Below, in pieces: positions 13,840 through 49,990 of a DNA stretch of 64,000 bases. The stretch lies in assembly GCF_021028975.2 (NCBI RefSeq), contig NC_059431.1:68200001-68264000 (forward strand). The letters run 5' to 3'. Made by a program: the position numbers and the translations under genes. This DNA is from Sphaerodactylus townsendi (Eukaryota). The notes under the pieces are model-generated. The model worked only from the letters and a program-made list of their open reading frames with translations, searched no databases and was not told the origin of the DNA. Position 1 is the first letter of the stretch. Every line of letters starts with the position of its first letter.

Positions 13840-14520
13840 TGTTGGAGATAGCGCTCTAGGTTCTGAAGACTCCTATATAGGGACCTTATTTGTTGGTTAA
13901 TTTTAATACATTCCTTGTCAAACCAAGAATTATTTGAACTTCTTGTATCTCCTCTGGGATGGTCTTTGCTTATCAAAGAGTTTGTCAATTAAGTAATTAA
14001 GTTGTCAAACAGCTCTATCCCCACTCCTGGACTTTTTGCTTTAATTATACCCGATTTTAAATTGGAAACAAAAGGCAATTTTATGGAAGATTTAAAAGTG
14101 GCCTCAATTTGTGATGACCACTTCAAACAAAAATGTAGATCATTGTTGATGGATTCAGGATTTGTGGTAGCCTCAACAGAAAGAGAAAACACTAAAGGGA
14201 GATGGTCACTCAAGGCATAATCATCGGCAACAAACTGGGAAATTGAACCTAAAAGTTGAGGTGAAACAAGGACATAATCTATCACACTACAACCATTGGC
14301 TGACATAAAAGTAAAGTCATCTGCATTAGAGAATTTTCTCAAACCATTCAACCAAAGTTTGTTGAAACGCATAGCAAATTTGGCTAAATTAAGACCTGCA
14401 AAATTACTGATTTGATCTTTTTATTGCCGAACTGCAGGAGTAAACAAAAATTGTATTACTTCGGAGTCACAAGTCACACTGTCCAATAAAGAGTACACAC
14501 AGTTGCCCACTCTAGCATAA
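13840..14520 (-). mobile_element. LINE fragment: C-terminal APE endonuclease and linker (RTE-X-like), disrupted
   Basis: ORFs 13989-14372 (FTFMSANGCSVIDYVLVS...LSDHLPL, APE motifs) and 13728-13988 (NSWFDKECIK) are separated by an in-frame stop. Confidence 0.8.
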
Positions 14521-27487: not shown

Positions 27488-29045
27488 GAAAGGATGACAG
27501 GGAGATTGTAGAGAAGCTGAATGAATTCTTTGCATCTGTCTTCACCCAAGAGGAGATGAGGAAAATTCCTGCACCTGAACCAAGATTCTTAGGAGATGAA
27601 CCCGAGGAACTAGCAAAGATAGTGGTAGACAAGAAAGAAGTTCTGGCAGCCATTTATAAACTAAATGCTACCAAATCCTCTGGCCCAGATTGCATTCACC
27701 CAAGAGTTCTTAAGGAGCTCAAGCATGAAATTGCTGTTCTTACTTTAATATGCAACTTATCCCTGAAATCGGCCTCCATCCCTGAAGACTGGAAGATGGC
27801 CAATGTCACACCAATCTTTAAGAAAGGATCTAGGAGGGACCAAAGGTAAGTACCTAGTCCAGTCAGTTTTGACATCTGTTCCTGAAGTAAATTTAGTACA
27901 GAATCTGCTCCATTAAAGATAAAATTATAAAACATGTAGAAACGCAAGACCTGCTGAGGAAAAGCCAGCATATGAAGCTTTTGCAGAACAAGTCCCTGCC
28001 TTACCTAAAATCCTACTTCAGGAGGTTGGCTTTGACTGTGTAAACAGGCATGTGGATAAGGGGGAACTGTGGACATTGTCTACTTGGATTTCCAAAAGGC
28101 TTTTGACAAGTTCCTCACCAGAGACTATTGAGAAAACTGAGCAATCAAGGAATAAGTGGGGAAGTCCTTTTGTGGATTCAAAACTGGTTGAGAAACAGGA
28201 AGCAAAGGGTGGGTGTAAATGGGAAGTTCTCACAATGGAGAGATGTCGGGAGTGGTGTCCCCCAAGGATCCGTTTTGGGACCAGTGCTCTTTAACCTATT
28301 CATAAATTAACCTGGAAGTAGGGGTGATCATTAGGAAAGGAATTGATAATTAGGATAATTAGGAAAGGAATTTCCTATGATAATTAGGAAAGGAATTGAT
28401 AATAAAACTGCAAAGATTATCATGCCCTTATATGAAGCAGCGGTGCAACCGCACTTGGAGTTCAGTTCTGGTCACCAAATCTCAAAAAGGATAACAAAGA
28501 GATAGAAAAAGTGCAGAGAAGGGCAAAGAGGATGATTGAGGGATTGGAGCACCTTCCTTATGAGGAGAGGCTGCAGTGTTTGGGACTCTTTAGTTTGGAG
28601 AGAAGACGTCTGAGGGGGGATATGATTGAAGTCCATAAAATTATGCATGCGGTAGAAAAGGTTGACAGAGAGAAATTTTTCTCTCTTTCTCACAATACTA
28701 GAACCAGGGGGCATTCATTGAAAATGCTGGGGGGAAGGACTAATAAAAGGAAACATTTCTTCACACAACGCGTGATTGGTGTTTGGAATATGCTGCCACA
28801 GGAGGTGGTGATGGCCACTAACCTGGATAGCTTTAAAAGGGCTTGGACAGATTTATGGAGGAGGAGTCGATCTATGGCTACCAATCTTGATCCTCCTTGA
28901 TCTGAGATTGCAAATGCCTTAGCAGACCAGGTGCTCAGGAGCAGCAGCAGCAGCAGCAGGCCATTGCTTTCACATCCTGCATGCGAGCTCCCAAAGGCAT
29001 CTGGTGGGTCACTGTGAGTAACAGAGTGCCGGACTAGATGGACCC
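27488..29045 (+). mobile_element. 5'-truncated CR1 LINE (degenerate ORF2 reverse transcriptase and 3' UTR)
   Basis: Hallmark peptides [78 protein letters not shown]. Frameshifts and an internal deletion near 28320-28400 with short tandem repeats. Confidence 0.95.
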
Positions 29046-31468: not shown

Positions 31469-32370
31469 ACTGAAAAAAAGAAAGGAAACTGCAGACAAAA
31501 ACAACAGCTTCTAAAATTGTTTCCTGAGAAATACAAGGAAAATGACCAATCCAAAACTGAGCCTGATGTTGAGACAGCAAAAAACAAAGGAAGACAGAGA
31601 GTGCTTGTGGGTCTATTGCAATTTAACTAATATCGCACTAGTTACAAAAGCAGAGTCCCAAGCATACAGTTTGGCCTCCCTCCACTCTGAGGATTCAAGT
31701 TTGACTCTTTACTTTGTTCCAAGGGAATAAAGAAAAGAAAAAAAATGTGACCCTGACCTCCTTTTACTCTCATACACACAAATGATTCTTTTTAATATTC
31801 AGATGAGCTGTGACATGAAGAAGGCCCGTGAGAACAAACACCTGCCATTTCTTTGGGCAGCATTTTAAACAGACATTAGCTATACAGTTTTGAAGCAAAT
31901 TTGATATATTATTGCGACAGATATCTTTCAAAATTACCAAGTGTCTCCCTTTTGGTGCCCACAAACCTCTTCCCTGATGCATTAAAAAAATCAACACTTT
32001 TTGTGAATGAGTGCAATGGGGAACAGGATTTTAGCTAATCCTGAAGAAGTAATCCAAAATTGGCTACTAGAGTCCTGGATTGGGATACCTTTAATTGGGC
32101 TAATTCTAGTAGGTTTTTAAAACATTATGATACTTTAATTACACATAGGATTTTATTAGGTCTAGGTCATGAGAATAATTTCAAATAAGATATTTAAGTC
32201 TTGCATAACCTGACTGATGGTGCCTTTTTGATAGCTTGAGTTAGCAGAATAAAACTTCCAACATCTCTGAACATTAAAGCATATATGGGTCACATGTTCA
32301 GCCATTAGAATCAAGATTACAAATAATCAATGTTGCAAAAGAAAATATTAGAGTTTACAAGATCAGCAAA

Positions 32371-32819
32371 TGTAGTAATGCACTGCTGACCCAGCAGCAC
32401 CGTGGTAGAACGTTGGCACACCAACGGACCTACGGCCTTCTGGTCGCACCGCACCCCCACTCCTCAACCCCGTATGAGTCACGGGTCATGAACTATCTGG
32501 CTCAGTCACCGGGCGCAGGGACAATGGTCTTGCCCCCAGGTGAGGATTAGGCTTAGACGCTTACGCTCTTCCGCAAGACGTAGCCAGGTGAGATCATGCA
32601 TCACATGATGATCTCCCCGACCTCCCGGGCCTCCCGGAACTCCCTCCGTTCCTCCCTTCTACACGCCCCCGATAGAATCACAATAAAAGGTGCCAGGAAC
32701 CAGCACGCGGGAGACTCGCTAGGAACACGGACCTCCGCGCTCCCGCTGCTGGCGATCTCCACCAGATGTTATCTCCGCGTCTCGTCTCGTTTTTGCGCTG
32801 ACCACGTGGGTCGACTACA
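32371..32819 (+). mobile_element. Young solo LTR (449 bp) of a retrovirus with 6-bp TSD
   Basis: Begins tgtagt and ends actaca (perfect 6-bp inverted termini); TSD agcaaa (32365-32370, 32820-32825); CpG- and C-rich; AP-1 TGAGTCA; AATAAA at 32682-32687. Confidence 0.9.
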
Positions 32820-33879
32820 AGCAAATATGTGTCTCCAATTTCATTTGGGGGAAAATGTTGAAATGAATATCTACTATATCAACCATTTTTCTGGTATTAA
32901 ATGGCTGCTTTATAAGCAAAAGCAACTTGTGTCAGGACTAGTAAAATTGGCAATAAATAACATTTCTCTTTATTCCACAAGATCTGCAACATGTGTGTCC
33001 TGAGAGCACTTAGCTAACTACATTTTCTTGACATTATCCAATGAATTTATCTTGAACTAGAATCACAAAGATATTATTATTTTTATTTTTTAAATAAGGG
33101 CGGTCATTTTGCACTGCAGATGATGCAACAAGTAGGAGAGTGGTATGAACGGTGACCTTCTTCAACACCAGCAACAAGGACACCTATGCTGGGCTTCTGC
33201 CTGTTCCCTAGTAGCAAAGCCACATTAAGAAGTTGGAAAGCAGGGGATGTGTCTTCATATAAACTGTAGGACACTCTAGAGTGAAACTAGCTACCAGTCC
33301 AGCACATTATCATGCTTCAAATAGATCAGATTATGTCTTTTACATTTTTACTAATAGAATAAATAGCACAGTTTACCTTCTGTTCTCACAAGATTGGTTT
33401 ATCATATATGAGAACAACAGTTTTCCTGGCACAAAGCAGGAAAAAACATAAAGCAGATCTATTTTGTGGAGACGGATTAGAATGTGTATAAATTTGTATT
33501 TAATCAAGAAACATGGAAGTCATAGAACCAAGAATTTGATGAATCAAAATGGGTTCTGTGTATACAGACCAGCAAGCCTGCATTTTTGCAGTAGGTCAAA
33601 AGGCAGGTTACCAGCTTGCTAGTGAAGATGCAGGCAGGTACAGATACACATCTTTGGGATCTTGTAACTACAGGCTACTACGTGACAGAAGCCATATACA
33701 TTTATTACTCTGTTTTTGGGTTAGAAATGAATGTGATTAATTAAATAAGGAAAAAGTGTTTTTCTATATAGTTAAATGAACACAGAAATGATAATGAGAG
33801 ATTCACATGTATTAGTATTTCACTATAATTATATTGTGTTAGAATCAGTGTATGTAAAATCTTTTAAATGTTTTAACAT

Positions 33880-48549: not shown

Positions 48550-49990
48550 AACTTTATGAGGCAGCCACACTGACTTGGTTAAAAGACTGGATAATTCTAA
48601 AAGAAAAAAAAATTATTGCACTTGGAAAAAATTGATTTAAGGAAAGGATTGCATGCTTACCTTTGGCCAAATGAACAAAAAATAAACACAACTCCACTAA
48701 ATCAGAAAGTCAATACACAGAATATGGATGAAATACAAAGACAGGTTTTACAATAAAACACCATTATGGATATCTAGGGCAGAATCATTACAAATTAAAG
48801 ACTTCTTAGAAATAGGAAACTGGCCTAATTACAAAGATTTACTCCAACAATCAAATGGTCAGATGTCAATGAAGGATATAACAGAATTACAAAGCAACGG
48901 TATTCTTTGCAATTGGGATACCTACAAAAACTTAGAGGAAGATTTTATAAAAGATTTAAAAGTAGAAGACTGGAATACTTGAATTCTGGAATTCCCAACT
49001 GGAATACTAATGAATTTGAAGAAATACTATGCAAAAATGACAAAAAATTGATAAATAAAATGTATAAAATATTACTAGGCTACGAAACGGAACATGAAAC
49101 AGTAAAGGAAGTAATGATAAAGTGGGCCTCAGATTTTAACTGGCCAATATTACTAGAAGAGTGGAACAAATGCTGGGAAAGACATAACAAGTTCACCCTA
49201 GCTATTAATTTAAAGGAAAAGTTTATTAAAATATTCCATAGATGGTACTACACCCCCACTAAACTAGCCAAATTTAACACAAGTGATGAAAATAAATGTT
49301 GGAAATGCAAAAAGAAAGTGGGCTCCTTCATCCACATGTGGTGGGAATGCTGTCAAATACAAACCTTTGGGGATAAGATAATTGACATTTTAGATAAAAT
49401 ATTTCACACAAAAATAGCAAGACGTCCTGAAACAATTCTTCTAGGGATGTCCAGCAACAAAGTAATAATTCATAATATTAACCTATTCCTATATTTAGTG
49501 ACAATTGCAAAAATAAAGATCTCAAAAATATGGAAATCAAGTGACATTCCTAAAGTAGAAGAATGGGAAAAGAAAATAACATCCATAATGTCTATTGACA
49601 GACTGACTTGGAAAATAAGGAACAATCCAGAAAAATTTAATAAAACTTGGGGCTTAACAAAATATTTAAATAAATAAGGGAATATAATTGGTTTGTGAAA
49701 TGTTGTCAACATTTATAAAGTATATATTTTATGGAATATGGAATTTTGTTTTTTTCTGTTTGTCTTTCAAATAGCAAGATAACTCCTTCTTTTGATCTTA
49801 GTTTCAAATTTGTTCAAGCTAATGTATTTATAATTTATATATTCATATGTATAGTTCATATAAGAATTAACTTTACATTTTGTACATTATGATGTGCTGA
49901 TTTGTTTGTATAGAATTTAATGAGTTTATTGTAATGATTGAAATGGTTAATAAACATATATTATTTATTTATTTTAAAAAGAAAAAAGAA
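48550..49990 (+). mobile_element. 5'-truncated L1/Tx1-clade LINE (ORF2 C-terminus, AT-rich 3' UTR, A-rich tail)
   Basis: ORF 48907-49677 has FHRWYYTP and the CCHC knuckle KCWKC...GSFIHMWWEC; upstream frameshifted LYEAATLTWLKDWI; AATAAA ~49949 then an A-rich tail. Confidence 0.9.

What the first reader, a model, noticed from the sequence alone, without database searches (positions are those of the whole stretch)
32371..32819. Young reptile solo LTR with deltaretrovirus-like 'looped' polyadenylation architecture
Seen: a 449-bp C- and CpG-rich solo LTR with a 6-bp TSD (agcaaa) and only one AATAAA (32682-32687), about 130 nt before the LTR end. It is followed 12 nt later by a 13-bp GC-rich stem with one bulge (ccagca-c-gcgggag 32700-32713 pairing with ctcccgc-tgctgg 32740-32752). 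Then come CA dinucleotides (32760-32764) and a GU/U-rich tract (gcgtctcgtctcgtttttg). Linear AATAAA-to-CA spacing is ~75 nt, but only ~21-24 nt with the stem folded out. Known: HTLV/BLV place AAUAAA upstream of a structured R region that juxtaposes it to the cleavage site, and they make 6-bp TSDs; betaretroviruses also make 6-bp TSDs. Inference: a recently active class II or delta-like squamate retrovirus using structure-dependent 3' processing, with the AATAAAA possibly doubling as the TATA box.
Basis: partly seen in the sequence, partly recalled or inferred. Interest (0 to 1): 0.7.

Follow-up and report, generated by a model that had tools for sequence, protein, structure and literature searches.

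The report
Beta-like reptile ERV solo LTR
This is the leftover end-repeat of a recently active, many-copy endogenous retrovirus whose proteins resemble those of betaretroviruses, not deltaretroviruses; it likely uses one AATAAA as both promoter and poly(A) signal with a predicted RNA hairpin bridging the gap to the cut site, an arrangement already described for human HERV-K-type repeats.

Summary
In detail: a 449-bp solo LTR with a 6-bp TSD, one AATAAA, no separate TATA box, and a hairpin that beats shuffles (z -3.85). The LTR belongs to a large, young ERV family. Its proviral copies carry a tRNA-Phe PBS, beta-type matrix, capsid, dUTPase, protease, RT and integrase, and an ASLV-like TM. The RT sits in a reptile class II clade (100/100; no delta outgroup in the tree). 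Env ends 12-69 nt from the 3' LTR in 36 of 36 copies, so there is no pX region and 'delta-like' fails. Single AATAAA, no TATA, stem-loop and distant T-rich tract is the published layout of betaretrovirus-like HML LTRs (HML4 is polyadenylated 69/84 nt after AATAAA). Looped 3' processing is therefore likely (~0.65) but already known, and untested here because no RNA data were found. Covariation is weak. One refinement: a second hairpin (32710-32760) is predicted when RNA starts ~28 nt after the hexamer, suggesting a 5'/3' two-state fold.

The parts
32365..32370 (+). 5' target-site duplication AGCAAA
32371..32819 (+). solo LTR; orientation fixed by PPT before and tRNA-Phe PBS after proviral copies
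32371..32709 (+). inferred U3 (boundary not mapped)
   Evidence: inference from hexamer position and fold B start
32682..32689 (+). AATAAAAG: only poly(A) hexamer and only TATA-like site; likely dual use
   Evidence: one canonical hexamer in 109 of 112 LTRs; <=1-mismatch TATAWAWR at this site in 106 of 112
32710..32760 (+). fold B: alternative hairpin sharing the 3' arm; predicted when RNA starts ~28 nt after the hexamer start; candidate R-region 5' hairpin
32760..32764 (+). distal CA dinucleotides, candidate cleavage sites (not mapped)
   Evidence: CA in 42 of 42 and 41 of 42 haplotypes
32768..32800 (+). U/GU-rich tract, candidate downstream element
32820..32825 (+). 3' target-site duplication AGCAAA

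Best explanation
This is a solo LTR of a young, high-copy betaretrovirus-like ERV family, and it likely works like a HERV-K (HML)-type LTR: the single AATAAAA is predicted to act as the TATA box in DNA and as the poly(A) signal in RNA, with a predicted hairpin bridging the 70-95 nt to the cut site. Shown: LTR identity, family, beta-like proteins, no pX room, single hexamer, conserved foldable region. Inferred: transcription starts near 32709-32713, so the 5' R lacks the hexamer and cannot be cut early; at the 3' end the hexamer is transcribed with U3, and the hairpin (fold A or B) brings it within ~20-30 nt of a site at or after 32761, followed by the GU/U tract. This window copy likely arose by LTR-LTR recombination.
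For: Family: 40 of 40 scored matches are full-length at 94-100% identity, out of 3753 candidates. Of the top 30, 11 are solo (TSD 6 bp in 9, 5 bp in 2), 12 follow a PPT, 6 precede a PBS and 1 has both. The PBS matches tRNA-Phe genes. Proteins: Gag_p10, Gag_p24, zf-CCHC, RT, RNase H and IN; dUTPase and protease fragments. IN scores 196 bits to 7usf (MMTV, recalled), 154 to RSV-type and 110-114 to HTLV/STLV-type entries. Gag scores 178 to 8c9m (HERV-K, recalled) and 54 to 8pug (HTLV-1, recalled). The RT lies in a 100/100 clade with lizard, snake and sea-turtle ERVs. The TM match ends 12-69 nt from the 3' LTR in 36 of 36 copies. LTR: one hexamer in 109 of 112; a TATA-like site away from it in only 1 of 112. 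Distal CA is conserved (42/42, 41/42) better than proximal CA (33/42, 17/42). Fold A dominates in 37 of 50 haplotypes with U3 attached; fold B in 41 of 50 when the first 26 nt are removed. The same layout is published for HML LTRs, with poly(A) 69 or 84 nt after AATAAA in HML4 (PMC2664473 sections 3 and 10).
Against: No RNA evidence for either the start or the cut site. Fold B has 2 of 11 such pairs. The tool warns that related sequences can beat its shuffles without any structure. The reverse strand also folds well (z -2.79). The start of fold B was chosen after seeing the fold. CA dinucleotides exist at an ordinary +14/+17 distance. For HML-2, another paper places AATAAA in R followed by a CA site and allows TATA-independent initiation (PMC13238051 passages), so dual use is not settled even there. 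The RT tree has no delta or alpha outgroup.
Confidence: 0.65

Rival explanations
1. Same beta-like ERV, but ordinary linear polyadenylation. A TATA-less, GC/C-rich promoter starts upstream of the hexamer, cleavage falls at the CA 14-18 nt after AATAAA, and the hairpin lies in U5, serving packaging, dimerisation or looping-in of the downstream element.
For: CA at 32701-02 and 32704-05; +17 CA in 33 of 42 haplotypes. A 114-nt U5 would be ordinary for betaretroviruses (recalled). TATA-less LTR promoters exist (ERV9, HERV-H; PMC2664473 section 3). Covariation is weak.
Against: The proximal CAs are buried in fold A (pair probability ~0.99) and are less conserved than the distal ones. There is no U/GU-rich tract within 60 nt of them. 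The invariant AATAAAAG fits TATAWAWR with one mismatch and lies ~28 nt before the base of fold B.
Confidence: 0.27
2. A deltaretrovirus-related element using an HTLV/BLV-type Rex-responsive loop.
For: C-rich LTR (35%) and interior (33.6% C in one copy); 6-bp TSD; hexamer upstream of a structured region.
Against: No room for pX/tax/rex (36 of 36). Beta-type matrix family and dUTPase. IN and Gag score far better to beta than to delta structures, and no delta protease is listed among the best 60 protease hits. No separate TATA box follows the hexamer; the loop is ~75 nt against ~270 nt in HTLV-1 (recalled).
Confidence: 0.03
3. The hairpin is a by-product of GC richness or a DNA-level feature with no role in RNA processing.
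For: Few double-sided changes; the reverse complement folds similarly; RNAalifold's covariation term is only -0.34.
Against: This segment alone in the LTR beats shuffles. 36 of 51 haplotypes have z < -1.5. The shared 3' arm is the most conserved block after the hexamer (0.95).
Confidence: 0.05

Closest known systems
HML (HERV-K-type) betaretrovirus-like LTRs, especially HML4 and HML2 (PMC2664473)
   Same: Single conserved AATAAA, no TATA box, G/C stem-loop right after it, T-rich tract far downstream. The paper reports poly(A) 69/84 nt after the hexamer in HML4 and initiation near AATAAA in HML2.
   Different: Shorter LTR (449 bp vs 500-1000), C-rich, tRNA-Phe rather than Lys primer (Lys recalled), reptile clade, ASLV-like TM. 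No sequence comparison of the LTRs was possible. A two-state fold did not appear in the passages read.
Python ERV (PyERV) and related squamate/turtle class II ERVs (PMC3758190, PMC6001957, PMC1224870)
   Same: Class II, beta-like gag-pol with a covalent (CX6CC) type env, in reptiles; nearest RT relatives are Podarcis, Varanus, Naja, Thamnophis and sea-turtle ERVs.
   Different: PyERV is reported without dUTPase and with a murine-gamma-like env; this family has dUTPase remnants and a TM closest to ASLV. PyERV itself was not among my sequences and its paper was not held.
Deltaretroviruses (HTLV-1, BLV)
   Same: Hexamer upstream of the inferred start; structure likely shortens the hexamer-to-site distance; C bias; 6-bp TSD.
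   Different: No pX region, no separate TATA box, short loop, beta-type proteins.

Membership tests
Retroviral solo LTR | TG...CA ends, TSD, same sequence flanking proviruses with PPT and PBS | tested here: met
Class II / betaretrovirus-like ERV | RT and IN closest to betaretroviruses | tested here: met
   (identity of several PDB codes recalled; tree lacks outgroup genera)
Class II / betaretrovirus-like ERV | Beta-type matrix and capsid | tested here: met
   Gag_p10 E 1.5e-11 and Gag_p24; best capsid hits HERV-K
Class II / betaretrovirus-like ERV | dUTPase N-terminal to protease | tested here: met
   dUTPase E 1.1e-5 followed by RVP E 9.7e-17 in one copy; no dUTPase or protease hit in 19 of 36 copies
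Class II / betaretrovirus-like ERV | Two NC zinc knuckles | tested here: inconclusive
   One zf-CCHC found, but in copies deleted just downstream
Class II / betaretrovirus-like ERV | -1/-1 frameshift translation | tested here: inconclusive
   Copies are deleted or error-rich; several have gag in frame with RT-IN
Betaretrovirus genus (strict) | Beta-type env | tested here: not met
   TM has ISD and CX6CC, best match ASLV TM at 48.8 bits; the RT clade is separate from SRV-1/4
HML-type LTR architecture | Single AATAAA and no TATA box | tested here: met
HML-type LTR architecture | Stem-loop between hexamer and T-rich tract, kept across the family | tested here: met
   (prediction; weak covariation)
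HML-type LTR architecture | Poly(A) site 70-85 nt after the hexamer; start site near the hexamer | not testable with these tools
   No RNA holder listed; contigs cannot show ends
Deltaretrovirus | pX region (tax/rex) between env and the 3' LTR | tested here: not met
   12-69 nt in 36 of 36 copies
Deltaretrovirus | Pol/Gag closest to HTLV/BLV; no dUTPase | tested here: not met
Deltaretrovirus | Separate TATA box downstream of AATAAA | tested here: not met
Gypsy or gammaretrovirus (class I pol) | Gypsy or gamma-type RT/IN | tested here: not met

The most novel reading that the evidence does not exclude
The LTR encodes a position-sensing RNA switch. One conserved 3' arm pairs with the first bases of R at the 5' end of the genome (fold B, a TAR-position hairpin) and with U3 at the 3' end (fold A). 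Together with a hexamer that doubles as TATA box, this restricts polyadenylation to the 3' LTR. That would extend HML-type looped processing to a reptile class II clade and add a two-state mechanism that I did not find described.
Probability: 0.25. Interest if true: 0.55.

Novelty: new member of a known kind. Interest (0 to 1): 0.27.

Why it matters
Modestly. It adds a young, abundant reptile family to the beta-like ERVs and suggests the HERV-K-type 'one hexamer plus hairpin' LTR plan is shared well beyond primates. A compact 449-bp LTR with many natural variants is a handy test case for whether AATAAA really doubles as TATA box and whether the hairpin sets the cut site. It is not evidence for a reptile deltaretrovirus, which would have been the surprising result.

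Tried and rejected
RNA evidence: no RNA holder listed; the four runs are contigs, three cover the unique flanks like DNA, and none shows molecule ends.

Poly(A)-tailed retrocopies: five exact patterns. Four found nothing. One found 3 loci: two are unrelated to the LTR and one is a 69-nt A tract inside an error-rich, truncated 5' LTR. It has no partner 3' LTR and the tract was skipped as a repeat in the read check, so it is not used as evidence.

Other searches with no result: Rfam, no match at E<=1; viral contigs, no relative; earlier scan notes, nothing on this sequence or topic; the PyERV paper is not held.

Dating by LTR pairs was rejected as unreliable: 9 of 17 pairs differ by <=4 substitutions (3 by none), while others carry up to 21 indel events that look like assembly error. 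The 'path distance <=30' measure (51 of 51 haplotypes) had no shuffle control and is not used. A tree with delta and alpha outgroups could not be built because no tool returned such sequences.

Literature searches for a prior description found the HML precedent but no paper on this family's LTR or on a two-state fold; subscription papers are not covered.

Full report
Observation. The window shows a 449-bp TG...CA element at 32371-32819 flanked by AGCAAA on both sides: GC 59%, C 35%, CpG O/E 0.92, one AATAAA at 32682-32687 and no TATA word. The predicted fold is longer, though: 32689-32763 forms one extended hairpin with the hexamer unpaired (-36.4 kcal/mol, z -3.85, 0 of 200 shuffles), whereas four other LTR segments do not beat shuffles. 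The reverse strand of the same segment also folds well (z -2.79).

Family. All 40 scored genome matches are full-length at 94-100% identity, from 3753 candidates. Among the top 30, 11 are solo LTRs (6-bp TSD in 9, 5-bp in 2), 12 follow a polypurine tract, 6 precede a PBS and 1 has both; 5 of 8 two-LTR elements checked have 6-bp TSDs. This fixes the + orientation. The PBS is complementary to tRNA-Phe: a pattern built from it found 3 loci, all called tRNA-Phe(GAA) by ARAGORN. Nine of 17 LTR pairs differ by 4 substitutions or fewer, so the family is young, but indel-rich copies make dating unreliable.

Classification. Natural open frames give Gag_p10, Gag_p24, one zf-CCHC, RT, RNase H and integrase, plus dUTPase followed by protease in one copy. 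Against solved structures the RT fragment scores 147 bits to 7sr6 and 75 or less to HIV RT. Integrase scores 196 to 7usf, 154 to RSV-type, 110-114 to 6voy/7pel and about 65 to lentiviral entries. Gag scores 178 to 8c9m and 105 to a named HERV-K capsid, against 54 to 8pug. Protease is best matched by 1nso/3sqf. The assignments 7sr6 and 8c9m = HERV-K, 7usf = MMTV, 6voy/7pel/8pug = HTLV/STLV and 1nso = MPMV are recalled. The nearest RT homologues (57-64% identity) are from sea turtles, Varanus, Naja, Thamnophis and Podarcis. In a tree of 33 of the 120 listed hits plus the query, these form a 100/100 clade apart from bird and mammal beta-like ERVs and SRV-1/4; the tree has no delta or alpha outgroup. 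The env TM remnant best matches ASLV TM. The TM match ends 12-69 nt from the 3' LTR in 36 of 36 two-LTR copies, which excludes a pX region. Beta-like ERVs in squamates and turtles are known (PMC6001957, passages), as is PyERV with class II gag-pol and gamma-type env (PMC3758190, passages).

LTR anatomy across copies. I collected 112 LTRs of 67-100% identity. 109 have exactly one canonical hexamer and 3 have none; 106 have a <=1-mismatch TATAWAWR at that hexamer, and only one has such a site elsewhere. 103 copies collapsed to 51 haplotypes (6 lacked the anchor), with median z -1.8 and 36 of 51 below -1.5. The 42 haplotypes of 80-90 nt were aligned; 9 of other lengths were dropped. Fold A keeps 90.4% of cells paired, against 39-51% for slid controls. 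Only 3 of 20 pairs change on both sides (148 of 500 shuffles reach that), the covariation score is reached by 2 of 500 shuffles, and two inner pairs fail in 15 and 19 haplotypes. RNAalifold chose the same basal helix but a different upper register. That register, fold B (32710-32760), keeps 88.7% of cells paired with 2 of 11 double-sided pairs and has z -2.70 in the window. Partition-function folding gives fold A in 37 of 50 haplotypes with the hexamer attached and fold B in 41 of 50 when the first 26 nt are removed. The shared 3' arm is the best conserved block after the hexamer (0.95). The distal CAs are near invariant (42/42, 41/42) while the proximal ones are not (33/42, 17/42). The structure is therefore conserved and plausible, but not proven by covariation.

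Mechanism (inferred). If AATAAAAG acts as the TATA box, initiation falls near 32709-32713, which is the 5' base of fold B. The proximal CAs would then lie upstream of the start and could not define R, so cleavage must lie further on. The 5' copy of R would lack the hexamer. At the 3' end, fold B puts the distal CAs about 24-27 nt from the hexamer; full fold A puts positions around 32775-32790 at that distance. Either way the GU/U tract follows. The exact site cannot be named. The main rival is a TATA-less upstream start with linear cleavage at +14/+17 and the hairpin in U5 (0.27). No RNA run was listed, and five retrocopy patterns gave nothing usable.

Comparison with what is known. PMC2664473 (sections 3 and 10 read whole, other passages by search; its supplementary figures not seen) reports that beta and HML LTR models have a conserved AATAAA and no TATA box, a G/C stem-loop predicted in 17 of 23 HML consensuses, and a distant T-rich tract. 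It also reports HML4 mRNA polyadenylated 69 or 84 nt after AATAAA, HML2 transcripts starting near AATAAA, and that HTLV has AATAAA before a TATA box. I did not read the primary papers it cites. PMC3601003 (passages) repeats the dual-role statement. PMC13238051 (passages) describes HML-2 with AATAAA in R followed by a CA site and possible TATA-independent initiation, so the precedent itself is not fully settled. PMC1224870 (passages) supplied the dUTPase marker. PMC13568524 (passages) covers alpha-like envelopes in reptiles. PMC9967133 (passages) added nothing specific. The element works like an HML LTR, is a class II beta-like ERV, and is not a deltaretrovirus.

Verdict. Observation confirmed; interpretation partly supported. 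This is a new member of a known kind, interest 0.27. The boldest surviving reading is a 5'/3' two-state RNA switch built on a shared 3' arm (probability 0.25, interest 0.55 if true).

Noticed in passing
L035:3149-7936 (-), L040:1463-5986 (-); one search list: Many young copies lack dUTPase and protease (19 of 36 with no hit; a full protease match in 4 of 36; the set was picked by RT similarity to such a copy). Some of them read gag, RT, RNase H and IN in one open frame (1596 aa in L035). Likely a non-autonomous deletion lineage that spread with a helper; why the frame stays open is unexplained.
   Followed up: partly
L036, L040, L083-L094 (small unplaced contigs): 13 of 14 contigs examined show head-to-tail units sharing one LTR (PPT before, PBS after); the 14th repeats the interior with no LTR. 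Most were chosen for having two RT hits. These are real tandem arrays or repeat-graph assembly artefacts; the ~2-unit contig lengths favour artefact.
   Followed up: partly
G000:C5:3818018-3818069 (L099, L113): A 5' LTR carries a 69-nt A tract about 95 nt after the hexamer (about 20 nt past the base of fold A), with U5 and the PBS continuing after it. It could be a poly(A) tail copied in during reverse transcription, a LINE-tail insertion or an artefact. Single, error-rich copy.
   Followed up: partly
L035:2294-2857 (-): The env TM remnant is closest to ASLV TM (48.8 bits; next best 28), i.e. an alpharetrovirus-like envelope on a beta-like gag-pol. Such envelopes are reported as widespread in reptiles (PMC13568524 passages). 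Only 0.7-1.3 kb separates the IN match from the C-terminal TM fragment, so SU looks partly deleted in all copies seen.
   Followed up: partly
L038, L041, L056, L069: Long C/G-rich low-complexity runs inside or beside family copies produce spurious multi-kilobase open frames (e.g. the 7719-aa frame); likely assembly artefacts.
   Followed up: partly
window 28436-28897 (+), 48829-49674 (+), 13992-14420 (-): Stop-free frames of 143-282 aa. The first looks like a CR1/L2-type LINE RT tail (recalled resemblance); none was searched.
   Followed up: no
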